This document shows, piece after piece, positions 3,665 to 56,055 of a stretch of DNA of 63,946 nucleotides (position 1 is the first letter of the stretch; every line of letters starts with the position of its first letter). Origin of the DNA: Negaprion brevirostris (Eukaryota); assembly GCA_030324005.1 (NCBI GenBank), contig JARDVH010000130.1, forward strand, positions 12,980,579-13,044,524. The letters are read 5' to 3'. Under the pieces are notes generated by a model, which searched no databases, had not been told where the DNA came from, and saw only the letters and a program-made list of their open reading frames with translations. Both the position numbers and the translations under genes were made by a program.

Positions 3665-3907
3665 CCTGGCAGAGCAGAGTAGATCATTCATCCTTTTTGG
3701 GCACTGGAGGGCCATCCTTTCTTGTTCGCTACAGACTTTGATCTCCCTGGCCACTTTCTCTCAGGCCATCACCGTCAAGTGGAAGGACCCCTTGCTCCCA
3801 TTCTGAGGAAGGAGGACCTCCCGCCGTTCCTAAGTGGCCTGCAGGAGAATCCCCAGGGAGGCTTCGCTGAAACGTGGTGCTGATAGTTTGGTTCTCCTCA
3901 GCACCAT
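3665..3907 (-). pseudogene. Fossil Myb/SANT-like DNA-binding gene (exon 1) of a PIF/Harbinger transposon spanning about 2586-4165
   Basis: One frame reads MVLRRTKLSAPRFSEASLGILLQAT*ERREVLL...MA*EKVAREIKVCSEQERMALQCPKRMNDLLCSAR, then a GTAAAT donor. Two in-frame stops. Confidence 0.7.
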
Positions 3908-4579
3908 GAATTCTGTGCTACAGAACAGCGGGGCTGCATTGAGTGAATGTCTCTGTGGGTGCTGTTTAAATACGGTGCCAGGACCTTTGATCCTGAGGTA
4001 ACAGCAGGGCAAGTGAATTAATGCCTGCCCTGCCACAAGATCTGCTGAGCTCCTCACTAATAATTAAGTAGGAAAAGAGAGATCGCGAGTGTGCAGTCAA
4101 CTAGCAGAATCATGCTAATTTTCCAGTCCGCCATTGGACTTAGTCTACAGAATGGAAAATTGCATTCCTGAACCATTTATAATGTAACAACAATTTACAA
4201 TGTGTTTGAGGACCATCGAGAGCTTATTGCAATTCAGAGTACTGCAAACGTGCTGCATTGTTATAGTTTCAGTGTGGGAATTTACAAAATGGTTTGCAGT
4301 AAAAGCCTTAAATTGACATGGTAGACCAAAGTGAAAAAATGATAATGTGCAGGTGTTAAGACAGTAACTTGCTGTGGTATCAAATTTTCACTTTTAAATC
4401 AATTCTAGACTCAACAAATTGACTAATTACTTTAGAAAAGTAACCAAAAGATAGATTGTATACTTTGGGGAAGAAAAGATTGAGGGTGACGTTATTCAAA
4501 ATCCTAAAAAGGAGTAGATAAATGAAACACCCTTAATATGGTTGAGATAGTTACAAACTCTTAAAGAAAAAAAACACAG

Positions 4580-4700
4580 AGGCTAGAAATTTCCTGCAGG
4601 GGATAGTGGGCTTGAGAGAAAATTCAGCCGACCGCTAAAAGGTCCATTGACCTCGGGTGGGAATTTCCAGTCTTGGTGCGCACATGACCGGAAAATCAGT
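4580..4700. mobile_element. Short Harbinger-like MITE
   Basis: Ends aggctagaaatttcc / ggaaaatc. Interior resembles 52277-52403 (ggtgggaatttccagt...ggaaaatc). Confidence 0.5.
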
Positions 4701-5552
4701 ATCAGTTTGAGAAAAGGGAACATGCACAGCTTGGAAATAGTCACTTCCTGTCAAGAATGGACTACCTGGACTGCCACTGGAGACAGTGGAGCAGGAGAGC
4801 ATGACAACATTCAAACAGAGAATTGGACAGAGATTTGAGACTGGTCAGACAGCTCTGTACTTTCCAACATTCCAGGGTGATTCGCTATAAATGGAAACTT
4901 GCAAAAGGGCTAGAAATTCAACTTGACCAGTGGTGCAAACCGGGCAGTATTGGGCTGGCTATGCAATATGCACAGTGCCTGATATTCACTTCCATCCCAG
5001 TAGAGATGCCACTGTTCAAGATTAATTTCTATATCACTGAGGTTGAAATATCTACTTGTTTCCATGCATATACTTCCTGTATTAGAGACAAAGCCAACTG
5101 ATTGGCACCGACACCTTAAAATGGCATTTTCTGCAGGCCAGGGCATTGCATCTAGAAGTCTAGGTGACCAGGTGGGCCACCATTCTTTAAAAACAGATAA
5201 ACAGAATTGGACAGCTTTCTTACATTGCAGCTACTGTTAAAGAGTAAAAAGGTAAAGGCATGACCCCTGGTGAATAAAGCACTGGTCATCTTCCTGATGA
5301 CAACAACTTGGTTAACATCACTACTCTCTTCTACTGTGGAAAGATCCAGCAGAGGGTAGTAGTCACTGAGTGCTTCTGGCAACATTCACTCTACAGGAAA
5401 GGTGGCTGCAGATGTTCCTGTTGTATATGGTCATAATCTGCAATATTATACTCATGGCCTCAGAAGTCAGCAATTTCCAGTAATTGCTGGGTCATTATTC
5501 CTAAATCTGCAGGTGCAGTAGGGAGCATAGCAGCAGCCAAGGCAGCACTCAA

Positions 5553-6132
5553 AGAACATTACAGCACAGGAACAGGCCTTTCAGCCCAAGTCTGTACCAA
5601 CCATGCTGTCCATCTTAACTAAAACCCTCTATCCTTCCGGGAAATCATATCCCTCTATTCCTGTCCCATTCATGTACTCGTCAAGGCGCCCCTTAAAAGT
5701 CACCATATCGGCTTCCACTACCTCCCATGGCAACGAGTTCCAGGTACCCACTACTCTGTGTTAAAAATCTGCCTCGTACATCTGCATTAAACCTTGCCCC
5801 TCGCACCTTAAACTTAGGCCCCCTAGGCTTTTTCCCAAGAGTCAATTACAAGCCACACATTAGGCCTTTGGGAAAAAGCTTCTGACTATCCACTCTGTCC
5901 ATGCCTCTCATAATACTGTAGACTTGCATCAGGTCTCCCCTTAACCTCCATCGCTCCAGTGAGAACAAACCAAGTTTCTCCAACCTCTCCTCATAGCTAA
6001 TGCTCTCCATACCATGCAATAACCTGGCAAATCTTTCCTGTACCCTCTTCAAAGTCTCCACATCTTCTGGTAGTGTGGCGACCAGAATTGAACACTATAT
6101 TCCATTTGCAGCCTAAGGTTCTATAAAGCTGC
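5553..6132 (-). mobile_element. CR1-clade LINE 3' fragment
   Basis: ETLKRVQERFARLLHGMESISYEERLEKLGLFSLERWRLRGDL on the minus strand, with CR1-type 3'UTR. Confidence 0.9.
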
Positions 6133-6609
6133 TACTGTTCAAGAGTAAAAGGTAAAGGCATTACCCCTTAGGTAAAGGCATTATTCCTACCTCTATGGCA
6201 GCTCTCCTCTGTTCCTCCTTTCAGTGAAAGGTTGGAAGCAGCTCCGTCAGCAGAACCCAATGGAATAGCAGGAGTTAACTGCAGAATGTCAACAAGGTTT
6301 CACGAAGTCAAAAATCTATTACACACAGAGTGCAAAATTGGCGGACCTCTCTGTTTTGTATCAATTAGCCACAAAGGCCTAATGCATGGCTTGCTTGTTG
6401 CAATATGCTTAAAGCTTACACAAGTAACAATTGCATGGCCCAATGGGCTCTTTGGCTACATGGAATTAATAGAAGTAAAGTGAATGGAAAACTCTGGTTG
6501 CACGTACAGAGAGCTGGTGAAAACGTGGCAGGCTGAAAGGCCTCTGTCTGTGCTGCAACCATTCTGTGAAAAGATCGCTGTACACATTCATAACGTGGAC
6601 CCAATAACA

Positions 6610-7225
6610 AGTGATTTGGATTGTCACATGTATTAACATACAGTGAAAAGTATTGTTTCTTGCAGGTTATACAAACAAAGCATACCATTCATAGAAAAAA
6701 AAAGAGTGCAGAATATAGTGTTACAATCATAGCTAGGGTGTATAGTAAGATCAATGTAATGTAAGAAAGGTCAATCAAAAGTCTGACGGCAGCAGGAAAG
6801 AAGCTGTCCTTGAGTCAGTTAGTACATGACCTCAGACTTTTGTATCTTTTTCCTGAAGGAAGAAGGTGGAAGAGAGAATGTCCGGGGTGCATGGGGTCCT
6901 TAATTATGCTGGCTGCTTTGCCGAGGCAGCGGGAAGTGTAGTCAGAGTCAATAGATGGGAGGCTGGTTTGCGTGATGGATTGGGCTACATTCATTACCTT
7001 TTGTAGTTCCTTGCAGTCTTGGACAGAGCAGGATACCAGATGTAACCAGAAAGAAAGCTTTCTGTGGTGCATCTGTTAAAGTTGGCGAGAGTCATAGCTG
7101 ACATGCCAAATTTCCTTAGTCTTCTGAGAAAGTAGAGGCGGTGGTGGGTTTTCTTAACTATAGTGTAGGCATGGGGGGACCAGGACAGGTTGTTGGTAAT
7201 CTGGACACCTAAAAACTTGAAGGTT
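6610..7225 (-). mobile_element. Rex1/Babar-like LINE 3' fragment
   Basis: LPSIDSDYTSRCLGKAASIIKDPMHPGHSLFHLLPSGKRYKSLR; same family as 61730-62571. Confidence 0.85.
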
Positions 7226-7311
7226 CACTTTCCCTTGAATACTTTTCTCAGACTCAATAGTGACATTTAAAAAAGGAGTCAGTTTAACCAGGATTTCTTG
7301 AGTTAAGATAC

Positions 7312-8342
7312 AGTAAGTAGTCTCACAACACCAGGTTAAAGTCCAACAGGTTTATTTAGTAGTACGAGCTTTTGGAGTGTTGCCCCTTCATCAGGTGAGT
7401 GGAGAGTTCAGTTCACAAACAGGGCATGTAAGGACACAAACTCAAAGTTAATGATTGGAATGCAAATCTTAACAGGTAATCAAATCTTTACAGGTGCAGG
7501 CAACGTGAGTGGAGAGAGGGTTAAGCAGAGGTTAAAGAGGTATGAATTGTCTCCAGCCAGGACAGTTAGTGAGATTTTGCAAGACCAAACAAGTTGTGGG
7601 GATTACAGATAGTGTGATATGAACTCAAGATCCCGGTTGAGGCTGTCCTCATGTATGTGGAACTTTGCTATCAGTTTGTGCTCAGCAATTCTGCGTTGTT
7701 ATATCGTGAAGGCCCCCTGGAGGTGCTTACCCGAAGATCAGAGGCTGAATGCCCTTGACAGCTGAAATGTTCCCTGACAGAGAGGGTACGTTCCTGCCTG
7801 GTGATTGTTGAGCGGTGGCCATCCATCTGTTGTAGCGTCTGCATGGTCTCGCCAATGTACCATGCCTAGAGACATCCTTTCCTGCAGCATATCAGGTAGA
7901 CAATGTTGGCCAAGTCACAAGAGTATGTACTGTACTTGGTGGATGGTGTTCTCACATAAGATGATGGCATCTGTGTCGATGATCCAGCACATCTTGCAGA
8001 GGCTGCTGTGGCAGGGTTGTGTGGTGTCGTGGTCACTGTTTTTATGAAGGCTGGGTAGTTTGCTGTGTTCAGTAGTCTGTTTAAGGTTGCACGGTTGTTT
8101 GAAGGCAGGTAGTGGAGGTGTGGGAATGGCCTTAGTGAGATGTTCATCTTCATCAATGACATGTTGAAGCCTCCAGAGAAGATGTTGTAGCTTCTGCACT
8201 CCGGGGAAGTACTGGACGATGAAGGGTACTCTATCTGCCTTGTCCTGTGTTTGTCTTCTGAAGAGGCCTGTGCGGTTTTTCACTTTTGGGCATCAGAACT
8301 GTCGACCTATCTGTCGGAACTATTCACTTCATCCTGGACCAC
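7312..8342 (-). mobile_element. Penelope-like element, GIY-YIG endonuclease region and 3' end
   Basis: RVPFIVQYFPG...PPLPAFKQPCNLK, YSCDLANIVYLICCRKGCL*AWYIGETMQT (GIY-YIG), terminal repeat with hammerhead motif. Confidence 0.9.
7362..7400 (-). ncRNA. Minimal type-I hammerhead ribozyme motif, decayed
   Basis: Minus strand: actcac CTGATGA aggggcaacactcc AAAAGCT C gta. GAAA is mutated to AAAA. Confidence 0.6.
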
Positions 8343-8441
8343 NNNNNNNNNNNNNNNNNNNNNNNNNNNNNNNNNNNNNNNNNNNNNNNNNNNNNNNNNN
8401 NNNNNNNNNNNNNNNNNNNNNNNNNNNNNNNNNNNNNNNNN

Positions 8442-8690
8442 NGCTGCTTTGCCAAGGCAGCGCAAAGTGTAGATAGAGTCAATGGATGAGAGGCTGGCTT
8501 GCATGATGGATTAGGCTACATTCACGACTTTTGTAGTTTCTTGCGGTCTTGGGCAGAGCAGGAGCCATACCAAGCTGTGATGCAGCCAGACAGAATGCTT
8601 CCTATTGGACATCTATAAAAAAAGTTAGAGAGAGTTGTTGTTGACATGCCAAATTTTCTTTGTCTTCTGAGAAAGAAGAGGCATTGGTAA
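8442..8690 (-). mobile_element. Rex1/Babar-like LINE fragment
   Basis: FLRRQRKFGMS...YRCPIGSILSGCITAWYGSCSAQDRKKLQ. Confidence 0.85.
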
Positions 8691-9747
8691 TAATCTAGAA
8701 GTTTCTGCTTTCTATTCTGGATTATCATAGTAAATTTAGCTATCTAGAGTAACTAATGCAATATAAAGATAATTGTATTGACAGCAGAATGATGATATTG
8801 TTTCCTCACACTATTTCAGGAAGCAATATATTTAGACCTATTCTAAATTTGGACCGATCTAAAGAACAGCATCCTGGTTTCTGTATTCACCCTGAACTGC
8901 CAAATGCACAGAAGCATCTGTTACTAGGGCAGCAGATGGTTGAGTGACTTAATAAGTTTCAGGAAGTCAAGAATTATAGAACTGTTAGCAGGGGTAGAGG
9001 GAATTTCTTACCAATGCAACATTTCTCATGAAGCAGCCCCATGGTGCTGGAAGTTCTGAAAAGTGGATTGCAACAATTTATGTTTCATTGCAGAATTGAA
9101 ATATTCTATAATATTCCAGAGAGGGGCAAGTACATGCTGACTGACCAGATGCACACATGGACATAGCAAATCGCACAATTATGTTTGCAAATATTAATTT
9201 TTCAGTAAAGTCTCACTCTTTAGCCATACAAAACTAGAAACACAATTTGTGTGGGAACTTAAAATCAAGTCATATTGTGAAATGAAAGATTTTAATTTGT
9301 GTTCTCTATTTGAATGTCTGTGTTTTTCAAATTTGAATATTTCTGGTTGGGAATTTCATTTATCTTGTCCCCTGCTTTCATCCTTTGTGTCAAATTTAAT
9401 TTGAAAGCAAGAGGCGAGACTAGCAGAACGGATCTGGGTGATCATGATTACCTTCCAAGCCTTGGCCGCGGACACTCTTGCAGCAGTTATGGTCAGGGAG
9501 GAAATACCAGCATAAAGCCCATGCAGTCACCCATAGAATGGTAGGCTAATACTGGATAAAATACCATGCAAAACTGACAGATTTTTGTGAAAACCTACTG
9601 GTCACTAATGATCTTCAGGAAAGGTCTAGACATCAGTCTCACATTATTCATTGTCACAGCCTCAGGATAAGGGGGCAATTATTTGGTACCAAGGTGAGGG
9701 GAAATTACCTCACTCAAAGGGTTGTTAATCTTTAGAATTTTTTGTTT

Positions 9748-10130
9748 TATTCATTCATAGGACATGGGCTTTGTTGGCTGGTCAGCATTTATTGCCCATT
9801 CCTAAATGCGCTTGTTCAGAGGGCAGTTGAGAGTCAACCATATTGCTATGGGTAAAAGCAAATTACTGTGGATGCTGGAATATAAAACCAAAAGAGAAAA
9901 TGTTGAAAAATCTTTAAGGAGAGAAAAGAGCTGATGTTCTGAGTCCATATGACCCTTTGTCAAAATTGAGATCACTGTGGGTCTGGAGTCACATGTAGGC
10001 CAGACCAGGTAAGGACGGCAGATTTCCTTCCATAAAAGGACATGAGTGAACCAGATGGGTTTTTAAGCCGATCGACAATGGTTTCACGGTCAACGGTAGA
10101 TTCTTAATTCCAGATTTTGTAAAAACTCAA
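9748..10130 (-). mobile_element. SINE with LINE-derived tail, interrupted by a Penelope 3' fragment (~9853-9968)
   Basis: Similar to 33722-34087 and 52840-53140. The insert has the ccagcatccacag end and a degenerate hammerhead-like ttgacaaagggtcatatggactc. Confidence 0.7.
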
Positions 10131-10319
10131 ATTGGCTTGCGTTGCTCGTGCCATGGGTACAACTTACAATGCAACTTGCCTGCATCTGAACAATAAATTC
10201 TTAGTGGTTACCATTACCCACTCATTCTCCCTGCCAACTCTTCGGCCTTCCTATTTATGGTTAGCCCACCTTTAATATAGCTTGTATACAGCTTTATAGA
10301 CTGATAGCCAAGTTCCACA

Positions 10320-10662
10320 CACACAAGTACGGCCTCAACCAGGATCTTAAGATCACGTCACACTATCTGTAACCCCCGCAACTTGCAAAATCTCACTGTC
10401 CTTTCTGGAAACAATACACATCTCTTTAACCTGTGCTTAATGCTCTCTCCACTCACACTGTCTGTACATTTAGGAACTGATTAGCTGCAAAGACTCACAT
10501 TCCAATCATTATTCTGTAAATTGAGTTTGTTTTTTTAATATGCCCTGTTTGTGATCAGAACTCCCCACTCACCTGATGAAGGAGCAGCGCTCCAAAAGCT
10601 AGTGACATTTGCTACCAAATAAACCTGTTGGACTTTAACCTAGTGTTGTGAGACTTCTTACT
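10320..10662 (+). mobile_element. Penelope-like element 3' end (same family as 7312-7650, opposite orientation)
   Basis: Near reverse complement of 7312-7650; ends aaataaacctgttggactttaacctagtgttgtgagacttcttact. Confidence 0.85.
10569..10605 (+). ncRNA. Minimal type-I hammerhead ribozyme motif with core G-to-A change
   Basis: tcac CTGATGA a ggagc agc gctcc AAAAGCT A gtga. Stem I tcac/gtga, stem II ggagc/gctcc, AGCT palindrome. Confidence 0.65.
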
Positions 10663-10934
10663 AGAAATGGCCAGATTGCAGGGATTGGAAGTGGAATTTA
10701 CAACACTCTTTTCCACCCATAACACCAGACTCCAAATGCCAATTTTACAACACCACATCTGCCATAAAGCATTGGAAAATTTGCCCTTATAAAGATCATC
10801 TACATGAAATCTGCTAGTTCAGTTGTAATATTGGTTGCTATTTTGCCTCTTGTTGCTGGTATGAGGTAATATTTTGGTCCTGAATTGACATCCGTGTGTC
10901 GAATTTAGATAACTGAAATTCAATTAATCTGTAT

Positions 10935-12065
10935 CTGAAGCATGCAAGATTCTGAATCGGGCTTGACAAAGAGGTTGCTTCCCAGGCTGAAGAGTCTTGA
11001 ACACAGAGACATAGGGCGGAATTTTAACCCAAATAATCTGTCATAATAGCAAGAATAATGGAGTGATCCTTGCTAGTCTCTCAGACGTGCTCAGTTCTGT
11101 ACTCCTCCCACACTCGATCACTTTTTATAAAAAAGAGTTCGGGGCTTTGTGCTGGTACTGGTGGGGACAGAGAGGGGCTGATAAACATGCTGTTGAGCAC
11201 AGCTTCAAAACGTTTGGACATCTTTTCGCAAGAGCACCCCGATCTTTCAGTGCAATGAAAAGTCCTTCCCTCCCTCCACCCCACAAACATCAGGTTCTAC
11301 CTCCACCGTTGGTGGCATATTCCCCCATCCCTTCCCCGATGTGTCGTTGACATCAGTGCCCTTTCGATGGGTCTTCTGTCTTGATCCCTAACCTGTCCCT
11401 CATCATAACCCCCGACATGGTTCACCCCTGTCCACACCCCATCATAGCCCTCACTCAAGCCCCATCCCCTCATTGCTGCCCCTGGTACATTGGCAGTGCC
11501 CAACTGGCACCAGAATGTCATGTGGCCACTGTCAGGGTGTCCAATGGGCATTGCCAGATGCACACCACCCAGCCATGGCCCTGGGGCCCTCAATGGCCTC
11601 CAACGCTGCTGGCATGACCATCATGCCAGGTCTCTATTAGCCGAGGCCAGTATTGATTCTTGACATTATCGTGCCATGTCCGAAGCTTGGAAGATTCCGT
11701 GTGCTGAGATTTGAACGGGCTATGCAGATTAAAATGCTACTCAATCTGGTTTACATCATTAGAAAGGGGCAGGGAGAATTGCAAACCATTTTGTGCTGAG
11801 CGCAAAACCGTATTTTAGGCCCATACACTATTTTCTCAGATCATACAATCTGCACCAGGCACAGCTAGGTAGGAAAATCACCCATTTAGTTTCACAGTAA
11901 GGAGTAGAATGAGGGGAAATTTCTTCCCCATCATGGTTGTGAATGATGTCCTATTATTGAACATGTTCAAGCCAGGAATAGGTAGATTTTTAATCTCTCA
12001 GGGAATCAAGTGAACAAATGTGAAAATGGAGTTAACACAGAAGATCGGCCAAGACTGTATTGGAT
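10935..12065 (+). mobile_element. CR1 LINE 3' fragment split by a Harbinger-like insertion
   Basis: gggcttgac...ttcccaggctgaagagtc...gacata, resuming after 11883 with gaatgaggggaaatttcttc...gttgtgaat. Confidence 0.7.
11014..11883. mobile_element. Non-autonomous PIF/Harbinger-like DNA transposon
   Basis: Termini gggcggaatttt / aaaatcaccc, flanks ata/att; it interrupts a CR1 fragment. Confidence 0.65.
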
Positions 12066-12076
12066 GATGATGATTT

Positions 12077-12373
12077 GGAGCAGCACAGCGGTTAGTACTG
12101 CTGCCTCACAGCGCCAGGAATGCAGCTTCAATTCCGGACTTGGGTCATTGTGTGCGGGGTTTGTATGTATGGATTTTCTCCAGGTGTTCCATTTCCTCCC
12201 GTAGTCCAAAGATGTGCGGGTCAGATTGATTGGCTACGCTAAATTGCCCCTTAGTGTCAGGGGATTAGCAGGATAAATATGTGGGTTTATAGGAATAGGG
12301 CCTGGGTGGGATTGAGGTCAGTTCAGATTTGATGGTCTGAATGGCTTCCTGCTGCAGTGTAGGGATTTTATGA
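12077..12373 (+). mobile_element. tRNA-derived SINE (V-SINE/HE1-like)
   Basis: cacagcggttagtactgctgcctcacagcgccagg...ttcaattcc (A/B-box region), central ctccgtagtccaaagatgtg core. Confidence 0.85.
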
Positions 12374-13191
12374 CGAAACAGGTTCAAGGGTCCATATGAT
12401 TGCCAATAAGTGGATTGGCAACTCTGCTAAAATAGCAGATCTCAAATGAATGAATTAAGTATTCATACGTTAAAATCCCCCAGATAATTTGCAGACAATT
12501 ACAACAGTGTAATCACTAGTGTTTCAGGAAACTACACATTAACTTATTATTAATACCAATGTGGAATCCATGAACTAATGCCAAAAGGAAATAAAGATCA
12601 AACCATTTCCTCCATCTGAATTCTGGTGGAGTGTACGATTGGAATCAATGATTCTATAATTTCATTAATCAGGCAAACTATTAGCACAAATCCTGAAAAA
12701 ACCTACATAATTATATGTATAATTATACATACAATTTTTCATTATAGCAAGGGAAATTGTGCAGCCAAAGGACACCACGCAACCTTAACAGAAGAGAAGG
12801 AGAAAGTGAAAGGAGGACGAAGAAGAGGATGCTAAAATACAGTCAAGGTGCGTATCGATCATTGTTCAACAGGACTTGCATCATCTATAATGGCAGCCCG
12901 ACATCAGCATTCTGCACGTTCTATTTTCCTACTTAATAGCCCCATGGAAGTAGTCTGCCCCTACCACCAGTAATGCCTGTTTCCTACCAACATTACTATT
13001 AACATTTAGTTCTTGACAATAAGCCTACATCAAGCAATCCAAAGAAAAAACAACCACTTTTTAAATTCTGTGAACACTTGATGTTTCTTTCCCTGATGCT
13101 TGTTTTTAGCAGCAGCTTAGGGTACGTCATCTAACACTTGGTGCTTGATCTTCGAACTTCCAGTGCAGTGGGAGAAAAGTTCTTAAGAAAT

Positions 13192-13605
13192 AAGGATCAT
13201 AAGGCATAGGACCAGAAATAGGCTATTCGATCCATCGAGATTGCTCTACCATTCAATGAGATCATGACGAATCTGAATGACAATCAGCCTCAACTCCACT
13301 TTCCTGCTATGTCCCCATAATCCTGGATTCCCCTACTGATTAAAAATCTGTCCATCTCAGCTTGAACACACTTAATGACCCAGTCTCTATGGTGAAGAAT
13401 TCCACAGATTTACTGTCCACTGGAAGAAATTTCTCTTCCTGTCTTAAAAGGGCAACTCCTTACATTGAAATTATGCCCTCTGGTCCCTGACTCTCCCACA
13501 AGGAGAAACAACCAAACAACCTCTTCACATCCACTGTCAAGCTCCCTGAGAATCCTATATGTGTCAATGAGTTCACCTCTCATTCATCTAAAACTCCAAT
13601 GAATT
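13192..13605 (-). mobile_element. CR1 LINE 3' end
   Basis: Reverse complement of the CR1 3'UTR seen at 1560-1938. Confidence 0.8.
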
Positions 13606-14149
13606 TAAACCTGTGTAGGGGCAGTTCGCGGTTTCTCAGTATGAGCTTTCTGCTTCAGCAATAATGAGTCCACTCATTCTCCTGGATTATGAGATGGCCC
13701 TGAAACTGCTGCCATACGTTTGCCCCACATTACTCATATTTTCCTCTCCTCTCCAATTAGTTGAACTTTTAGTCCCCTGCTAGGGACAGCTGATTTGAGC
13801 ATAGAGAGTAGATTGATGGGAAGAACCTGCCTTATAACAGTCCCTGTATAGCCCTTGAAGTGACCTTGGAATGATGTGCAGAACAGCTTTTGACCACCAA
13901 TAGTTTACCATTTTGGTTACCATGATGGTCCTACCATTACCAGCAGAGTTTACCATTAAAGTTGCTTCAACAGGAGTTTAAGTCTCTCATGAGTGAAAGT
14001 CTGTTGTAAATTGGAGTTCTTCGAATGGTAATCAAAGCATTTAATAGCAAAACTTCATAGGTGATTCCAACCTCTGATTGCAAGGCACCTCCGCAGCTGG
14101 CTGAGAGTTTACTATTCCTCTAATCTAGAGGTATGGATACCAACTACAT

Positions 14150-14460
14150 CGCAGCATGGTGGCACAGTGGTTAGCACCACTGCCTCACAGCACCAGAGAG
14201 CTCAGGTTGAATTCGAGCCTCGGGTGTCTGTCTGCATGGAGTTTGCACGTTCTCCCCTTGTCTGCATAGGTTTCCTCCAGGTGCGCTGGTTTCCTCCCAA
14301 AGTCCAAAGATGACCAGCCATAGTAAATTGACCCTTAGTGCCAAGGAGATTTGCAAGGTAAATATGCAAGGTTTTGGGGATAGGGTTTGGATGGGATTGT
14401 TGTCAGTGTAGTCTTGATGGGCTGAACGACTGCCTCCTGCTCTGTAGGAATTCAATGATT
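14150..14460 (+). mobile_element. tRNA-derived SINE
   Basis: ggtggcacagtggttagcaccactgcctcacagcaccag...ggtttcctccc...gtccaaagatg. Confidence 0.85.
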
Positions 14461-15145
14461 TCCAGAGTTCCACTGCTGTATTTTCTCCACTGTTTCATGC
14501 ATTGAGCTCAGAAGATTCTTAGAACCCGCATGATACGCTTCTGTTACCTGGTTGCTCTGTTTTTCTGCACATACCCTATAAGTGCATGCCTCATGCTAAC
14601 CTTGCCTCTTTCTTGTTGATGCTGTGCTAGCATCTCCACTTCCACCTCCATTGTGTGACATGCTCCACCAAGTGATATCTTTTGACCCTCTCTTTCCAAG
14701 TCCTTTGAGGTGGATGCACGCAAGCTGATGCACGTGGGGCGAGAATGACTGTTGAATGCTCTTATGAGAAGCCAGCTGGCTGATTAATCTATTGTAAATG
14801 TCAGCATCTTGGGAGGCCACTGGTCAAAAAGAGAAAGGAAATGGCAATTAGTGTGGGATATGCGGGAAATGGTTCTGTATACATTAGCGAGGTAAACACG
14901 CTGCTGAAGACATTACAGCAGTGACTGATTAAATGAGCTTGAAAGGCAAGCAAGAAAAAGATGAAGCAAGCTCTTACCTTGCTTGTAAGGATGGTGCAAA
15001 GTCCATAAATCCTAAGTGCCCACGCCACTTATGTTCTCACCTCCAGTGTGACCTCAATTGTGGCTAAAGCAGTGTAGATTGGCTAGGTCACCACAGATTC
15101 TCTCCCCATAGTTATTATCAATTATCTTCTTTCAAAATAGACATC

Positions 15146-16657
15146 AGGCAGAATTTTCCACTCTGGAGACCAAATGCGGGTGGAAAATGTGCCCCGATCT
15201 GTATGAAGGGACAAGTGATGCCATGTTTAGCTTTGTCGATCATTAATGATACATCTGCAAATAGCTCAGTGAACCTTGTGGGTAGCAAGTCAGGGGGTCG
15301 AAGGGCAGGTGTCACGTTTAAAATGCACTTGAACAGACGCTCACTTGTGGCAGGCCAGAAGCTCCATATTGCTCCTATCAAGTACTTGATAGGAGGCACG
15401 GTGGTTAGCACTGCTGCCTCACAGCACCAGGGATCCGGGTTCAATTCCCAGCTTGGGTCACTGTGTGGAGTCTGCATGTTTTCCCAGTGTCTGCACTGGT
15501 TTCCTCCCACAGTCTGAAAGACGTGCTGGCTATGTGCATTGACCCAAACAAGCACCAAAATGTGGCGACTAACGTCATTGCAATGTTAATGTAAGCCTTA
15601 CTTGTGACTAATAAATAAACTTTACTTGCAGCTGAAGCTCATGCTGGAGAAGCTGGCAGATGTGAGCAACTGCATCCTGGAATGCAGAAGGATATCGCAA
15701 ACCTTGCCTTTCCCTCAGATAAGAACTCTTCCAGCAATACACTCACGGTTGGGCCAATATTCGCCATTGCAGTAGTCCACGTTCGTCAGGCTTTACAACA
15801 TATAGAGATATCAATGCCTCATGCCCTTGCTTCTCCCAGTCTGTGCTAACTGCAATGGGCCCTCCTCCTCCTCACCTGGAAGACAGCCTCTGCCAAGGCA
15901 GAGTTGTCTGTCACTTGTGGCATCTAAGCCTCCATGGAAGTGTAAAGTGAAACACTGAGTGACACACATCCTTTACAGGTTTCCCTCCATCTCAAAGTCA
16001 GAAGATCAGTGATAAGCCCTTCACCTGGCCTCCATCTAGACATGGTACCCCCACCCCTTCCAGTAAAGGGCATCCTGGAGGACCAGAGATGGGTGTTCCT
16101 CCCACTTAGACACAAATGTGTCTGGAGACACTGCTGTTTGAACTTAGTGAGAGCCAAGTACAAGAAGCCCACTTTTTTGCTCGTTTCCACTACTCTGGAG
16201 ATTGTATAGAAATCCCTTCACCTTGACAAAACAGAGGGACTTTATCCTTATCAGCCATGACCATTCTCTCAGGAAGATGAAGATTTTGAATGACAAATTA
16301 GCTCCCCTCCACCAGCCGTGCCCCTTCACAATAGGAAGGGGAACACAAGTGATCAGCTTTGGCATCCAGTTGCCTCAATTATTAGAAATGTCCCTTTTCT
16401 CGGCCATGTGTGCCAACCTTGAACTTCATTCCTCTTCCCTCCATCACCCTTGAACCTCCCTCAGTTACCCTGGACTCCATCACGATCCATTTCTCTCCCT
16501 TCAGAGCTGAACCACCTTTAAACTGCCTTGAATGTCGAGAAAATAAAGTTCCAACAATTTATCCCACCATCAGGAAATAGATTCTTTGTCTCTGGGCAAT
16601 TTAAATGCCCCCATCTGCCATGTTTCCAGCAGCTGGCAGAAGCAGAAAATTCTGCCC
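15146..16657. mobile_element. Non-autonomous PIF/Harbinger-like element with nested SINE
   Basis: Perfect 12-bp TIR ggcagaattttc (15147-15158) / gaaaattctgcc (16645-16656); 3-bp TSD ATC at 15143-15145 and 16658-16660. Confidence 0.75.
15392..15625 (+). mobile_element. tRNA-derived SINE (gtaagcc...aataaataaac tail type)
   Basis: ggcacggtggttagcactgctgcctcacagcaccagggatccgggttcaattcc (B box), tail gtaagccttacttgtgactaataaataaac. Confidence 0.85.
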
Positions 16658-18369
16658 ATCACTATTTTGACATGAATGCCATTATCCAGCTAATCTTTCA
16701 ACTTTTATGAAAGGATGACCATGTTTATTTTGAGGCAGCTTTTGAACTTCATAGTAAGACATGCAGAAGTTATGTAAAATAAATAAGGTCTATCCTCTTC
16801 CAGCCATGAATCTTCAACTAAAACATTGTACATCTGCAAACTGCTGTGCCTGCAATGTGACGGACTGAGTGTATCAATATTTTCTGTGCTGTACTAATGT
16901 TGGGGGAATTCAATGCTTGTGTTATGCATTTTACGGTCATTCATATCATCTGATCAGAAAAACCAGAAGTCATTCCACCGCAGGCCAGAGGTCATATCCA
17001 TCTGTTCCCACAACTGATAGGAAACAACTTGTTGCTTGGCTCGAATGTAGATTTCCCCACTGTCCTAAAATTGAAGACACCCTCCATACTGCAATATCTG
17101 AATTAACACATCCAACGTCAACTCATCAAATGGAAAAGTTTTGGCATTTGGTCTCAGCAACACAGATAATGAACGACAGTAGCAGCAGCTCTTCATTCAC
17201 TATCCCCAAGTAGCTAAACTACTTCCAGTGAATACAGAAAGCATAATAAATTGCCAAAGCCAGGTCTCTGTGCACCAGTGAAAATATACTTATATATGTT
17301 ATAATCTTGNNNNNNNNNNNNNNNNNNNNNNTAGAATGTGCCCTGGAATATCTGCTCTTAAGATGAATTGTGAAATTGTATTTGATATTACGATATAATG
17401 TCACCCGCCGGACATGTATTTATATTGTCATCGACCAGGCAGACACGTATTGTACTTATTTTAAAAAAGGGCACTTTTGTCAAGCAAAGGACACTGACTC
17501 TCAGCAGCTATTATGTTGCATCTGTGAAGGGCACAGGCTGTTTTATGGAGACGCCTTGTCTATGGAGCTCTCAGAGAGAGGCCACATGATCCATCTCTTG
17601 GGTAAAAAGATATTGGATTTTGAACAGTCAGACTGTCACTCTGGGGCAGCAATCTAATTGAAGCTCTCTCCTTTCTGCAATCTTTCTCATCAAAGCAGAG
17701 TTATTTGTGATCGGAAGACCCACCAGAAGACCTCATTGCTGCAAACCGAGGGTTCTCAAAAGAAGAATGCCCAATCAACCAGTTTTGATTGCAAACCGAC
17801 TGCCTCACTATGGAAAGGGGCCCTTCAGCTGTAAACAAGTTTTTGAACAATCCGTGAATTACATTTTTTCTGATTTTACTTAATAGTTAACCAAGCTTTT
17901 AGGATTTGATACTCCCCAGTTTTACCTCGTTTTGTGCATGCTTGGTCGGGGGAGGGGGGGAAAACGACTTATTAACTAAAGGAACCTGGCTGACTTATTT
18001 CTTGCACCAAGCTACACACAAATAAGTGTATAATAAATTGACAATATCACCTCCTTTCCAAATTCATTACAAACTCAGGAAAGAGAGGAATCCATTCACT
18101 CTTGCTTTCGTGCTTGTAACCAAATATTAAAAAACCAAGGCAGAGTGGGAGTGGATGACAAAATGTATGTCTGTGAAGGAAGCTACCCAATCTTCCTTTC
18201 ATTAACTTAAGTCGAAGAAAAATTGTGCAATTTGGCATGCAATGCAACATAGCTGATTTGCTAATATTTTATCTGTCCAATAAACCAGTGCTTTTGGATA
18301 TCAGCCCAGGAAGATCTCTATTTCAGCCTTTGAATGAAATTCTAGCAACAAACACATAACTTCCTCCCC

Positions 18370-19430
18370 TCTTCTCGTGTAGTGACTGTTCTCTTTCTGA
18401 CACCCTGGTCCACTCTTCAAAAAGTTCCAACACCTATTCACCTACCTATGGCAGGTGATGCAAAACGGACCATTATATTTCTGACTGTCCCGTTCCTAGG
18501 TGTACCAATGATTTACTTGTACCTACCTCTTTCCAATTTAATATGCTACATTGGAGGTGACAACGCTGTGGACACCCAAGTTGGTACAATCAGACACGGA
18601 TTGGGTGATTGCTTTGCTAAGCAATTCCATTATGGCTGCAGGCATGACTCAGCTTCCAGTCACTTAATCATTTCAACTATCCATCTCACTCACAATCTGA
18701 TCTCTGTCCTCACTCTGCTACACTAATCTAGTAAAACTCAAGGAAGAGCACCTCATCTTTTAATTTGCCATGTTACAGCCTTTCCAATTTAGCATAGAGT
18801 TCAACAATTTCTGATCACAACAACAACTGCACCATTTTTCCCCCTTTGATTGCAGGTGCTGGTAATAATTTGAGTGTTACCATTTGTGCTATTCATAGAA
18901 TGGTCCATCGAGTCTGCACTGACTCTCTGGCAGAGCATCTTATCCAGGTCCTCTCTCCATAACTGCACATTTACCATGGCTGATCCATCTAGGGACACTG
19001 AAGGGCACTTTAGCATGGTCAATCCACCTAACCTGCACATCTTTGTACTGTGGAAGAAAACCGGAGGGCCTGCAGGAAACGTGCACAGACATGGAGAGGA
19101 TGTCTGTGTGGAGTTTGCATAAGTCATCCAAGGCCAGAATTGAACTGGGTCCCTGGAGTTATGAGACAGCAGTGCCAGCCACTATGTTACCATGCTGCCC
19201 TACATGCCACATTGCCAATATTTTTGCCTTGCACCAACATTCCTTCTGTCATCTAAGTTTCCTCCTTTCACACTACCACAGGCCAACCATCCATCCCTGC
19301 CTCTGTACTGACTTAAAACCAGTTTTTGATTCCAGCTCTGTTAAAGGTCCTCAGTGTGAACCACTTACTTTTCTTCCCACAGTGCTGTCCGAGTGACTAT
19401 TTCCAGAATCTGCAATCTTTTGTCTCTGCT
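18370..19430 (+). mobile_element. Second Penelope-like family, GIY-YIG remnant, split by a SINE
   Basis: NLICYIG...LGDCFAK and EEHLIF..LQP...IEFNNF remnants; 3' end after 19200. Confidence 0.65.
18893..19200 (-). mobile_element. tRNA-derived SINE
   Basis: Reverse complement of the SINE consensus (aatccacctaacctgcacatcttt...gagacagcagtgc). Confidence 0.85.
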
Positions 19431-20009
19431 TGCTTATCATGGATTTCTCTCAATATTTCGGCCTTCCCACAACCAAGACCACCAAAGTATACTATCTATT
19501 TAGAGTATTATTTGTGGGACTTTGATATGTGAAAATTGGCAGCTGTGAATATGATACAACAGTGACTGCATTCAAACTAAGAGTGGGTGTAAAGTGTTTT
19601 AAGGATGTGATAAGGATATATTTTTGTTTATTTTGTTCATTTACAACACTTGCAATCTAATTAGCTGAATATTTGCAGTTCCAAAGTCAACAAAGGCTTC
19701 ACTCACCGTACCCTTAAAATTCTGGAGCAAATGGGAGGCATTCATTCATTTTGTCAATATGACAGTTGCACATTACAATTTCTTAACCATATTTACTCAA
19801 ATACGTAACCACAAAATCATGATTCAAATGGATGCTGAAACTACAATTGCATGAACTTAGTTTATACTGTATTCTAGGTAACAAATTAAAAATTAATGAT
19901 TAGTTTTGGAGGAGAATTAACTGTGCAGCAATTTCCTGCCAACTGTAAAATGAAGTTCCCAACTTAATTTGTTAAGCAGACACGCTGAGCTTAATTTTTG
20001 ACTGTGAAA

Positions 20010-24736: not shown

Positions 24737-24918
24737 CAATGTAACCAATGGAAACATGATGTGATAGTCAGCTGACCCATTAGCCAATGTAACCAATGGC
24801 AATGTGCTGTGGTGATCAGCTGACCAATTGGACAATGTAACCAATGGCAATGTGCTGTGATGATCAGCTGACCCATTAGACGATGTAACCAATGGCAATG
24901 TGATGTGATCAGCTGACC
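24737..24918 (+). repeat. 48-bp minisatellite, about 3.8 copies
   Basis: Units start at 24737, 24785, 24833 and 24881; consensus caatgtaaccaatggcaatgtgctgtgatgatcagctgacccattaga. Confidence 0.95.
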
Positions 24919-29904: not shown

Positions 29905-30595
29905 ATAGTCATTTAAGGTGTAGAAGGAGGCCTTTCAGAATATCCTTCCACACGCTGGGATATTGGGGGAGGAGGCTGGAGGTGAGGGAATTCACTTGAA
30001 GCACTATCCCAAATGATAGCATTGTCATACACACTCAGGCCAGCCAGACCACCAGTACTAGATTCGAAATCTGGTTGGTCGTTGATCAACAATCGAGCAA
30101 ATCACTGAAAATTTCAGAGATAGCCTATCCATAGTAACAATCGCAGTTACCATGCCAGAATCTAAGGCTTCACTTAGATCTTCTGTTAGAAGAAGCGCGG
30201 TTGTGAAATTTTGTTCAAGCAAGTATGTGCCTCATGACTAACTGCACCACCATGGTGTCTCAGATGTGAATGGGGGGGCTCCTCCAGCTAAGCCACTATC
30301 CTGTGAAGTTGTCTTCACTGCCTGCTTAATTCTCTGCAGGCATTCTTCTCATAAATGTCGACCTTTGGAGACCTGGAACCTGAGGCTACCCAGCTGAGGA
30401 TATCTATTTCCTGTCCCTTCAGAGAGCAATACATTTCCACTTCATTTCTTCCTGATCACCCACAATTTGCCTGTTTTTATTATGTGAAATTCTTTCCGTC
30501 CAAGTAGCACTCCCTCTTCCTGGAGGACCCAACCATCTCCCAGCCTCCACCACAATCTCCCCCACCGCCCCACCCATCCACCCTCATAACGAAGA

Positions 30596-30640
30596 CAAAG
30601 CTCTGATGAAGAGTCATCCATACTCGAAATATTAGCTCTG
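30596..30640 (+). ncRNA. Minimal type-I hammerhead ribozyme motif with intact core, in a Penelope 3' fragment (to ~30697)
   Basis: caaagct CTGATGA a gagt catccat actc GAAATAT T agctctg, followed by the Penelope-type end ctccacggatgc..gacctgctgag..tccagcattttctgttttt. Confidence 0.7.
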
Positions 30641-31504
30641 TTCTCTCTCCACGGATGCCTTCAGACCTGCTGAGACTTCCAGCATTTTCTGTTTTTCTCT
30701 AGGGCTTCCCATATGGCGAGTCCCCTGCCCACCACTGAGTGAATGTCAGTAATGGTGGGATGAATTCCTTAAATGGACATTAATTGTCCACCTTCAGGGC
30801 CTCAGGGGTGAGAAGGCTGACCATGTGCTTTACCGTCATGGACTTAATCAGTGCAACAGCAGGAAGGTGGATGGTTCCCATACTCTACTTGCCCGTCAAC
30901 TAAATTGCCCTCCCACCACCAAAGCTACCACAGGAGAGGGTGTTAAATGACCTCCACTGAAACACTGCCCCAAATCACTGATGCTGGAAACAGCTTTTAC
31001 ATCCATTTAAATGCTGCAGCAGCGGTGGATTTCTCTTCCCTATGCTCTGTTTTTAATTTCCATTTGGTGGAAAGCCAATAATAAAAAATTACAGAACAAT
31101 CCATCTTTTACTTTTGCAATGCAAGCTAATTTTAATGATATAAAGAGTTGGTGTGTGATCCATTATCAGAAATGGTGAGTGCAGACCCTACATAAAAAAC
31201 ACAATCTGAAACTTCGCTGCATTTGTCCCATTGCAAAATGATCAGTGCTTTGGAAGGATATTCTTGTGCATACCATCTTCATATTCTTCTCAATAGAAGA
31301 TAAACTCTGTCCTTTATTTCACCTAATAAAATTCTACTCTTATTTTTACATAAGACAAGAAGAAATTAAGTTTTAGTTGTAGCTCAATTCCTGTTACTTT
31401 GTTGTACTCCAAGGAACAGAATATGTGCGTTGAAAATACCATTCCATTCTACAGAAGATTCAAAATTGCAGAAAGATCATAGCACTAAGCACACAAACTA
31501 GTTA

Positions 31505-45420: not shown

Positions 45421-46219
45421 GNNNNNNNNNNNNNNNNNNNNNNNNNNNNNNNNNNNNNNNNNNNNNNNNNNNNNNNNNNNNNNNNNNNNNNNNNNNNNNN
45501 NNNNNNNNNNNNNNNNNNNNNNNNNNNNNNNNNNNNNNNNNNNNNNNNNNNNNNNNNNNNNNNNNNNNNNNNNNNNNNNNNNNNNNNNNNNNNNNNNNNN
45601 NNNNNNNNNNNNNNNNNNNNNNNNNNNNNNNNNNNNNNNNNNNNNNNNNNNNNNNNNNNNNNNNNNNNNNNNNNNNNNNNNNNNNNNNNNNNNNNNNNNN
45701 NNNNNNNNNNNNNNNNNNNNNNNNNNNNNNNNNNNNNNNNNNNNNNNNNNNNNNNNNNNNNNNNNNNNNNNNNNNNNNNNNNNNNNNNNNNNNNNNNNNN
45801 NNNNNNNNNNNNNNNNNNNNNNNNNNNNNNNNNNNNNNNNNNNNNNNNNNNNNNNNNNNNNNNNNNNNNNNNNNNNNNNNNNNNNNNNNNNNNNNNNNNN
45901 NNNNNNNNNNNNNNNNNNNNNNNNNNNNNNNNNNNNNNNNNNNNNNNNNNNNNNNNNNNNNNNNNNNNNNNNNNNNNNNNNNNNNNNNNNNNNNNNNNNN
46001 NNNNNNNNNNNNNNNNNNNNNNNNNNNNNNNNNNNNNNNNNNNNNNNNNNNNNNNNNNNNNNNNNNNNNNNNNNNNNNNNNNNNNNNNNNNNNNNNNNNN
46101 NNNNNNNNNNNNNNNNNNNNNNNNNNNNNNNNNNNNNNNNNNNNNNNNNNNNNNNNNNNNNNNNNNNNNNNNNNNNNNNNNNNNNNNNNNNNNNNNNNNN
46201 NNNNNNNNNNNNNNNNNNN

Positions 46220-47143
46220 CTGCAGGCCCTTGGAGTGGCGGGAAAGCTTGAAGATGCGGAAGACCCGCACCAGGCGGATGACCCGGAGGATGGCCAGCGA
46301 GGTGGCCTGCTCCCCGCTCATGTTGCCCTCCTCCTCCTCGGCCAGCTCGGTGCCCAGGGTGATGAAGTAAGGGATGATGGCCACGATGTCGATGAAGTTC
46401 ATGATGTTCTTGAAGAACTCGGCCTTGCTGGGGCAGGCGAAGAAGCGCACCAGCAGCTCGAAGGAGAACCAGATGATGCAGAGGGTCTCCACGATGAAGA
46501 AGGGGTCGCTGAAGATGTTGGCCTTGTAGGGCACGGTGGTGTTGCCCACCTGCATGGTCCTCTTCCTGTCGTCCTTGAGCGGGGGCAGGGTCTCCAGGCA
46601 GAAGATGACGATGGAGATGAGGATGACCATGACGGAGACGATGGCGATGCCCCGGGCTGGCCCCGAGCTCTCGGGGTGCTCGAAGAGGAGCCACACCTGG
46701 CGCTGGTACTCATTCTCGGGCAGGGGTCTCTCCTCCTCCCGGATGAAGCCCTCGTCCTCCCGGAACTTCTCCATGGCCTCCTCGCCCAGCTCGTAGAACT
46801 TGATCTCCTCGGAGAACATCTCGAGGGGCACATTGACCGGCCGCCGGAGGCGACCCCCACTCTGGTAGTAGTAGAGGATGGCGTCGAAGCTGGGCCGGTT
46901 CCGGTCGAAGAAGTACTCGTTCCTCAGCGGGTCGAAGTACCTCATCCTCTTCTTGGGGTTGCCCAGCAACGTGTTGGGGAACTGGGCCAGGGTCTTCAGC
47001 TGGGTCTCGAAGCGCAGCCCCGAGATGTTGATGACCACGCGCTCGCAGCACTCGTGGTCGTCGTTGTCCGGCGGGTAGCTGTCCTGGGGGTGGCCGGGCA
47101 GAGCGGACGCCTCGTCCATGTTGTCGCCGGCGAGCACGGTCAT
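46220..47143 (-). CDS. KCNA1: Voltage-gated potassium channel Kv1.1 (Shaker family). Visible part runs from the N-terminus through T1 and S1-S4; the CDS continues into gap 45422-46219, with the stop expected near 45670 if the length is mammal-like.
   Basis: [96 protein letters not shown] (T1 domain) ... S4 [24 protein letters not shown]. The N-terminus, [12 protein letters not shown] and GEQATSL are Kv1.1-type. Intronless, high GC3, good Kozak (ccaggATG). The ORF-track end at 45311 is read-through of Ns. Confidence 0.95.
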
Positions 47144-50399: not shown

Positions 50400-50650
50400 T
50401 TTCCTGCCCCTTTTCCTGCCTCTGTATTTGCTTAACACTTATTACATCTCTCACTTTCCAGTTCTGACGAAAAATCATCAACATCAAAATGTTTTTCTGT
50501 TTTTCTCTCTCTACAGATCCATAGAGTCCTTTACAGTGCAGAAGGAAACCACTTGGCCCATCAAGTCTGCACCAACTCTATGAAAAAGCATGCTACACAG
50601 GGCCACCCCTTTCACCCTATCCCCACGTATTTACCACAGCCTATCCAGCT
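50400..50650. mobile_element. Penelope 3' remnant (+, ctgacga at ~50464) abutting a SINE tail (-, 50520-50650)
   Basis: ccagttctgacgaaaaatcatc...ctctctacagat; catagagtcc..cagtgcagaagga. Confidence 0.55.
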
Positions 50651-55604: not shown

Positions 55605-56055
55605 GTTTCATTAAATCCCTACAATGCAGAAGAAGCCATTCAGTCCATGGTATCTGCACTGACTCTCTAAGAGAATATTTTACTCAGGCCTTCTCCCCCC
55701 ACCCGATCCCGTGAAACCTACACAGTTATTATGGCTAATCCATCTAACCTGCACATCTTTGAACATTAAGGGACAATTTAGTGTGGCAAATCCACTTAAC
55801 CTACGCATCTTTGGAACTAAGGGGCAATTTACTGTGGCCAAACCACTTAACCTACACATCTTTGGATACTAAGAGGCAATTTAGCATGGCCAATCCATCT
55901 AACCTGTACATCTTTGGAGTGTGGGAGAATACCAGAGCACCAAAAGGGAACCCATGCAGACATGGGAAGATCGTACAAACTTCGCACAGTCACCCAAGGC
56001 TGGAATCGAACGAGCTGTGGGACAACAGAACTAACCACTGTGCCACCATGCTGCC
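55605..56055 (-). mobile_element. tRNA SINE with four tandem copies of a ~50-bp internal unit
   Basis: tggc.aa.cca..taacct.cacatcttt...ta.agg..caattta repeated at ~55731, 55782, 55832 and 55885. Confidence 0.9.

What the first reader, a model, noticed from the sequence alone, without database searches (positions are those of the whole stretch)
30596..30640. Minimal hammerhead ribozyme motif with an intact catalytic core, ~10 kb beyond the KCNA1 3' end
Seen: stem I caaagct/agctctg (6 of 7 pairs), core CUGAUGA, stem II gagu/acuc, then GAA-AUAU-U. Known: Penelope-like elements carry minimal type-I hammerheads in which stem III is replaced by a palindromic tetranucleotide (ACGU or AGCU) and which cleave as dimers. 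Inference: ACGU probably decayed to AUAU at the CpG, which is still palindromic. This copy could therefore still self-cleave (AUU site), unlike the other copies in the window. It lies on the strand opposite to KCNA1.
Basis: partly seen in the sequence, partly recalled or inferred. Interest (0 to 1): 0.7.

Follow-up and report, generated by a model that had tools for sequence, protein, structure and literature searches.

The report
Fossil Penelope hammerhead near Kv1 gene
This is a real minimal self-cutting-RNA (hammerhead) motif, but it is the end-piece of one old copy of a very abundant Penelope-like jumping gene in a shark-type genome, and its intact core is most likely a chance survivor of ordinary decay with no role for the neighbouring potassium-channel gene.

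Summary
The motif is there as described (30599-30637) and is not chance. It is the front of the pLTR of a Neptune-type Penelope-like retroelement: longer copies carry reverse transcriptase and GIY-YIG remnants upstream, and related pieces number about 190,000 (68 hits in 983 kb). The family form is the published minimal type I hammerhead: 4-bp stem I, 5-bp stem II, ACGU tetrad. This copy is of median age. It has lost its TATA box and one stem II pair, and its extra stem I pairs come from a short filler, not from the family. An intact core is common (13 of 50 close copies; 28.5% expected from independent decay). At least 113 other copies match a strict 35-letter intact pattern. AUAU is as frequent in copies that lost catalytic G12 (14 of 288) as in those that kept it (24 of 536), so it is mutational, not selected. 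No same-strand partner for a dimer lies in the window. The Kv1 gene is about 15 kb away on the other strand. Weak in-vitro cleavage as an engineered dimer remains possible; a biological role is unlikely.

The parts
30573..30588 (+). Remnant of the pLTR stretch that lies just before the TATA box in long copies
   Evidence: 16-nt exact match to L009 and 10-13 nt matches to 6 of 25 long copies, ending where the TATA box begins
30589..30598 (+). 10-nt filler in place of the family's ~31-nt TATA-plus-spacer; likely a short inverted remnant of the element; it supplies the extra stem I pairs
   Evidence: Long copies have a TATA-like hexamer here (23 of 25; in 21 it starts 30 nt before stem I); 30591-30602 matches the reverse complement of 30634-30645 at 9 of 12; 10 of 12 positions can pair
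30599..30602 (+). Stem I 5' arm (AGCU), the family's 4-bp stem I
   Evidence: the 3 bases before it in 28 long copies (CTC 9, CTT 8, TTT 4, others 7) do not pair with the 3 bases after the 3' arm (CTA in 22)
30603..30610 (+). Core C3-A9 (CUGAUGA) plus the extra A between A9 and 10.1
   Evidence: Sequence; extra nucleotide is a hallmark in PMC4209133; U7 is a CpG decay of C7
30611..30625 (+). Stem II, 4 pairs (GAGU/ACUC) with G10.1-C11.1; the family's fifth pair is broken by U30621
30626..30633 (+). G12 A13 A14, palindromic tetrad AUAU (family ACGU) and U17; predicted cut after 30633 in a dimer
   Evidence: Sequence; genome-wide pattern counts
30634..30637 (+). Stem I 3' arm (AGCU)
30638..30697 (+). 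Rest of the pLTR end-piece, stopping before the optional 3' tail seen in many copies
   Evidence: Alignments; 4 of 56 scored positions differ from the family majority (7.1%; family median 7.0%)
45660..47143 (-). Kv1-family potassium channel coding region (context only; the 3' part is masked and the stop position is inferred)
   Evidence: middle gene of three minus-strand Kv1 genes on the contig

Best explanation
The motif is the minimal type I hammerhead at the front of the pLTR of a Neptune-type Penelope-like retroelement, and this copy is an old, truncated insertion whose core most likely survived neutral decay by chance and likely does nothing in the cell. Shown: family membership, the upstream RT and GIY-YIG remnants in longer copies, the TATA box 30 nt before stem I in long copies and its absence here, median divergence, and neutral statistics for core and tetrad. 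Inferred from the literature: in the active element two tandem pLTR hammerheads would pair through their ACGU tetrads to build stem III and cut after position 17, probably weakly and with help from the element's protein. Inferred for this copy: after insertion C7, the tetrad CpG and G30621 mutated; the copy lacks its own promoter, a tandem partner and the element protein, so cleavage in vivo is unlikely. A synthetic tandem dimer might still cut slowly in vitro (my estimate 35-45%).
For: 4,260 first-look candidates in the genome; 68 hits in 983,271 unmasked bases of 120 evenly placed 10-kb stretches, about 186,000 genome-wide (144,000-235,000). Six long copies share up to 1.7 kb upstream; one piece matches 8 proteins among 62 candidates, with PF00078 on 2 and PF26215 on 7; another scores 0.95 to GIY-YIG clusters; a CxCxxCxxC linker is visible. 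Intact core in 13 of 50 close copies against 28.5% expected under independence. Among 824 otherwise pattern-perfect copies, the C11.1-G12 CpG decayed as often to the G12-killing form (277) as to the G12-keeping form (253), p=0.32. AUAU 24 of 536 with G12 against 14 of 288 without, p=0.86. Of 283 copies with C11.1-G12 intact, 169 have a non-palindromic tetrad. Only other near-intact + strand hammerhead in the window (10569) has lost G12 and has a different tetrad. PMC4209133: monomer inactive, dimer low activity. PMC11167929: a PLE hammerhead cut only with protein, and no RNA-seq read ends at the site.
Against: The insertion is shared by at least three other runs (X2, X4, X12) whose flanks differ by about 3%, and the differences inside the motif could not be read out: between 1 and 6 in 135 bases against 17 in 528 flank bases (p 0.14 to 0.44), so constraint is not excluded. 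Non-CpG core positions diverge less than the tail across the family (20 of 442 against 196 of 2693, p=0.033); base composition or subfamily differences could explain this but were not tested. ACGU is kept more often where C11.1-G12 is still CG (104 of 283 against 80 of 288, p=0.025), which age or methylation differences would also give. The filler extends stem I to 10 of 12 pairs, bringing the modelled active dimer from -5.0 to -14.4 kcal/mol, in the range of four other intact copies (-11.6 to -16.7); the gap to two folded monomers is 6.2 kcal/mol, against 3.5-7.1 for those copies, so energetics do not single this copy out as dead.
Confidence: 0.93

Rival explanations
1. The copy was exapted: the filler gave it a long stem I and it now cuts a + strand (antisense or intergenic) RNA in the Kv1 cluster, affecting channel expression.
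For: Only strict match in the window; extended stem I of 10 of 12 pairs; insertion present in three other runs; lower bound of orthologue differences in the motif is 1 in 135.
Against: TATA box gone; stem II shortened; C30601A in the X4 orthologue contig breaks an inner stem I pair unless compensated at a position I could not see; no partner in cis; at least 113 equally intact copies elsewhere; about 15 kb from the stop codon on the other strand.
Confidence: 0.02
2. AUAU marks a subfamily or RNA-level selection for a palindromic tetrad (compensatory change), so this copy descends from an active AUAU variant.
For: TA is 3.6-fold (odds) more frequent at the tetrad CpG (38 of 824) than at the C11.1-G12 CpG (11 of 824), p=1e-4; in the locus sample 5 of 90 against 4 of 221, p=0.13.
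Against: The excess is the same in G12-dead copies (4.9%) and G12-keeping copies (4.5%); the 38 AUAU copies carry every state of the other CpG and both alleles at the subfamily positions; the 10 strict AUAU copies share no diagnostic flank or tail by eye. A tree was not built.
Confidence: 0.04
3. Chance arrangement of letters unrelated to any ribozyme.
For: Loose pattern at chance level; no Rfam hit; monomer fold not better than shuffles.
Against: Full descriptor 0 times in 60 simulations; family-wide anatomy matches the published minimal hammerhead; reversed control patterns give 0 matches.
Confidence: 0.01

Closest known systems
Minimal type I hammerheads (min-HHR) in pLTRs of metazoan Penelope-like elements (Cervera and De la Pena 2014, PMC4209133; parts 1-2 of 4 read, supplements not read)
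   Same: CUGANGA and GAA core, extra nucleotide after A9, G10.1-C11.1 pair, short helix I, no helix III, palindromic 15.2-16.2, location in the pLTR, mostly solitary dispersed copies.
   Different: Helix II is 5 bp in this family and 4 bp here (7-8 bp described for Schistosoma). Sharks are not named in the parts read. This copy has a decayed AUAU tetrad and a filler-extended stem I.
Neptune clade of endonuclease-positive PLEs (Craig et al. 2021, PMC8557442; passages read)
   Same: [quoted passage not shown]
   Different: Only broken remnants were seen; no tree was built; the window copy holds no coding sequence.
Poseidon_Ac hammerhead of Anolis (Frangieh et al. 2024, PMC11167929; parts 1-2 of 4 read)
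   Same: Hammerhead at the pLTR; copies end with or without a short tail.
   Different: Different clade; there cleavage was shown, needed the element protein and was dispensable for insertion in vitro.
Non-LTR retrozymes of animals (bioRxiv 10.64898/2026.07.22.740005; passages read)
   Same: Non-coding, hammerhead-bearing, PLE-related, reported in one chondrichthyan.
   Different: Retrozymes are defined on tandem arrays; this is a single pLTR stub.

Membership tests
PLE minimal hammerhead (PMC4209133) | Conserved core CUGANGA ... GAA, U16.1, H17 | tested here: met
PLE minimal hammerhead (PMC4209133) | [quoted passage not shown] | tested here: met
   A30610; G30611-C30625
PLE minimal hammerhead (PMC4209133) | No helix III; palindromic 15.2-16.2 | tested here: met
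   AUAU here; ACGU in 104 strict copies
PLE minimal hammerhead (PMC4209133) | Lies in the pLTR of a Penelope-like element | tested here: met
   Long copies continue upstream into GIY-YIG and RT remnants
PLE minimal hammerhead (PMC4209133) | Self-cleavage as a dimer | not testable with these tools
   Only nearest-neighbour energies, without tertiary contacts
Neptune-clade PLE (parent element) | C-terminal GIY-YIG with CCHH and a CX2-5CxxC linker between RT and EN | tested here: met
   Motifs read in remnants of L113, L196, L200; atlas 0.95 to GIY-YIG; Pfam itself gave no hit on 9 broken pieces
Neptune-clade PLE (parent element) | RT phylogeny places it with Neptune | not tested
   No tree built
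Rfam hammerhead families | Score above gathering threshold | tested here: not met
Non-LTR retrozyme | Tandem array of hammerhead-bearing units | tested here: not met
   Single copy; other family copies in the window lie about 20 kb away and are decayed
Exapted, conserved vertebrate hammerheads (intronic HH9/HH10 type; recalled, no call) | Stable helix III so that it cleaves as a monomer | tested here: not met
   No helix III
Exapted, conserved vertebrate hammerheads (intronic HH9/HH10 type; recalled, no call) | Conservation across species above the flanks | tested here: inconclusive
   1 to 6 differences in 135 motif bases against 17 in 528 flank bases

The most novel reading that the evidence does not exclude
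An insertion accident gave this Penelope hammerhead a long stem I (10 of 12 pairs), and it has been kept in several sharks as a working ribozyme that cuts an antisense or intergenic RNA inside the Kv1 channel gene cluster: a domesticated transposon ribozyme at a neural gene.
Probability: 0.02. Interest if true: 0.65.

Novelty: new member of a known kind. Interest (0 to 1): 0.1.

Why it matters
As it stands it matters little: it is one decayed copy of a described motif. The useful by-product is a clean genome-wide test that shows genomic copies of this ribozyme family are not under selection for catalysis (G12 lost as often as kept; AUAU as common in dead as in live cores), which tells a scan that an intact minimal hammerhead in a shark-type genome is expected by the hundreds to thousands. 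If the exaptation reading were true, it would be a transposon ribozyme domesticated next to a neural ion-channel gene.

Tried and rejected
Rfam: no hammerhead hit. No RNA holder listed among 24 runs; this says nothing about expression. First read-laying was swamped by paralogues inside the motif and showed 40 of 108 difference rows; the second listed one motif difference and left 5 orthologue differences unlisted, lying either in the motif or near the ends of the stretch. One search covered the wrong side of a copy and returned a neighbouring SINE-like repeat; it gave no coding link. One search crashed and its pooled table was out of register for the small sets; one search replaces it. Pfam and PDB gave nothing useful on broken ORF pieces. 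My extrapolation of about 5,500 structurally complete copies rests on 2 of 35 spanning copies in the random sample (95% interval 660-19,700); one of the two is also among only 114 strict genome-wide matches, a catch with about 5% chance, so the low end (order 1,000) is more likely. The 29 best hits were chosen for likeness to the query and were left out of the neutrality counts. Lunse, Weinberg and Breaker 2016/17 (dimers) was not held; I saw only its title and a review's account (PMC6765202, passages and part 2 of section 11). Literature searches: 'hammerhead ribozyme'+'KCNA1' 0 papers; 'self-cleaving ribozyme'+'shark genome' 0; one search listed no paper with hammerheads in sharks among 25 shown of 1,746. 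Supplements of PMC4209133 were not read and may list chondrichthyan examples. No target-site duplication was evident by eye.

Full report
Observation. Rfam has no matching model. The monomer folds no better than shuffles (z -0.54), as expected for a motif without helix III.

What it belongs to. A search of the own genome with 30560-30705 gave 4,260 candidates, 40 scored, 46 matches, the best at about 89% identity over 100 bases starting at stem I. In 120 evenly placed 10-kb stretches (983,271 unmasked bases) a profile found 68 hits, about 186,000 genome-wide including related subfamilies. Copies chosen on upstream sequence, not on the ribozyme, share 250-1,600 bases upstream; six extended loci share up to 1.7 kb. 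Those bases hold broken RT (8 homologues among 62 candidates, several from rays and sharks, PF00078 on 2 and PF26215 on 7), a CxCxxCxxC linker and a GIY-YIG domain with two cysteines before YIG. By the definitions in PMC8557442 (passages) this is a Neptune-type Penelope-like element; no tree was built. The genome is a cartilaginous fish, likely a shark (inference and the repeats).

Family anatomy. In 50 close copies not selected on the query, stem I is 4 pairs (AGCU with AGCU or GGCU), stem II 5 pairs, the tetrad ACGU before CpG decay, position 17 mostly U. In 23 of 25 long copies a TATA-like hexamer precedes the motif, in 21 starting 30 bases before stem I, so the element's transcript would start at about stem I (inference; agrees with unreviewed earlier notes e1-8639351 and e1-8021936). 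This matches the minimal hammerhead of PMC4209133 in every sequence feature I could test.

This copy. It keeps 16 bases of the stretch before the TATA box (30573-30588) but the TATA box and spacer are replaced by 10 other bases; 30591-30602 matches the reverse complement of the 3' arm region at 9 of 12, which suggests a short inverted remnant, a known feature of these insertions. That filler, not the family, supplies the extra stem I pairs (10 of 12 possible). U30621 breaks the fifth pair of stem II (46 of 50 copies have G). Its tail differs from the family majority at 4 of 56 scored positions, 7.1% against a median of 7.0%: an ordinary, old copy. Contigs of three other runs span the same insertion with flanks about 3% different.

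Is survival of the core unusual? No. 13 of 50 close copies have an intact core, against 28.5% expected if positions decay independently; in the random set alone 5 of 35 spanning copies have an intact core and 2 of 35 also keep both stems and a palindrome. Exact genome-wide counts with one 35-place pattern: 824 copies perfect apart from two CpG sites; 283 keep C11.1-G12; of these 104 have ACGU, 10 AUAU (this copy included) and 169 a non-palindromic tetrad. The C11.1-G12 CpG decayed 277 times to the G12-killing form and 253 times to the G12-keeping form (p=0.32). AUAU occurs in 24 of 536 copies with G12 and 14 of 288 without (p=0.86). TA is more frequent at the tetrad than at the other CpG (38 against 11 of 824, p=1e-4), but since the excess is the same in dead cores it is most simply a mutational context effect. 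Against my reading: non-CpG core positions diverge a little less than the tail (4.5% against 7.3%, p=0.033), and ACGU is kept more often where the other CpG is intact (p=0.025); composition, subfamilies or age would give both, but I did not separate these.

Could it cut? In the published test the monomer was inactive and dimers weak; the Anolis element's hammerhead cut only with its protein and left no read ends in RNA-seq. Nearest-neighbour energy of the active homodimer is -5.0 kcal/mol with the 4-pair stem I and -14.4 with the extended one, against -11.6 to -16.7 for four other intact copies; relative to two folded monomers the cost is 6.2, against 3.5-7.1. So chemistry in an engineered dimer is not excluded. 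In the genome it lacks a promoter of its own and a partner: the only other near-intact + strand hammerhead in the window (10569, another family) has lost G12 and has an AGCU tetrad.

Link to the channel gene. The Kv1 coding region starts at 47143 on the minus strand; its end is masked and the inferred stop is about 15.0 kb from the motif. It is the middle of three minus-strand Kv1 genes 150-180 kb apart; the motif lies between two of them on the other strand, so the channel mRNA cannot contain it in the cutting sense. With a related piece every 14 kb, one at this distance is expected. Orthologue differences inside the motif could be bounded only (1 to 6 in 135 bases against 17 in 528); the one that could be read, C30601A in run X4, breaks an inner stem I pair unless compensated.

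Verdict. Observation confirmed; identification as a Penelope minimal hammerhead confirmed; the idea that this copy is a special, still active ribozyme tied to KCNA1 is not supported. New member of a known kind, interest 0.1. Five paper searches found no report on this family in sharks or on a hammerhead near KCNA1, but unread supplements of PMC4209133 and the unavailable Lunse et al. paper may cover it, and this scan holds 1,054 earlier notes with the same key words.

Noticed in passing
window 9854-9989 (-) and 50460-50530 (+): Two more decayed copies of this or a sister pLTR family; cores broken.
   Followed up: partly
window 10569-10605 (+): Hammerhead of a second Penelope family (AGCU tetrad) with G12 changed to A; two intact examples of that family were in the random sample (L042, L050).
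   Followed up: partly
window 7915-8283 (-): 122-aa frame that looks like the RT-to-endonuclease region of another Penelope family (recalled likeness; Pfam gave no hit).
   Followed up: partly
genome-wide pattern matches: Double decay CG to TA is correlated within copies: 3 of 11 copies with TA at C11.1-G12 also have TA in the tetrad, against 35 of 813 (p=0.012); and TA is 3.6-fold commoner in the AAACGTT context. Possibly a context- or repair-driven mutation route.
   Followed up: partly
L090, L092, L094, L098: The pLTR 3' end abuts the end of an abundant SINE-like repeat tail-to-tail in four unrelated loci, perhaps a shared preference for AT-rich targets.
   Followed up: no
L003, L011, L012, L013, L020, L029, L035, L036: Head-to-head inverted pairs of the end-piece joined near the hammerhead; junctions fall at different places in or near the motif.
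   Followed up: no
window 24737-24907 and 55715-55918: A 48-bp tandem repeat rich in CCAAT and CAGCTG words, and a 52-bp tandem of a SINE-like piece.
   Followed up: no
G000:C143:34110661-34113475: Two Kv1-type T1-domain matches (91% and 68% identity, no stops) only 2.5 kb apart on the same strand.
   Followed up: no
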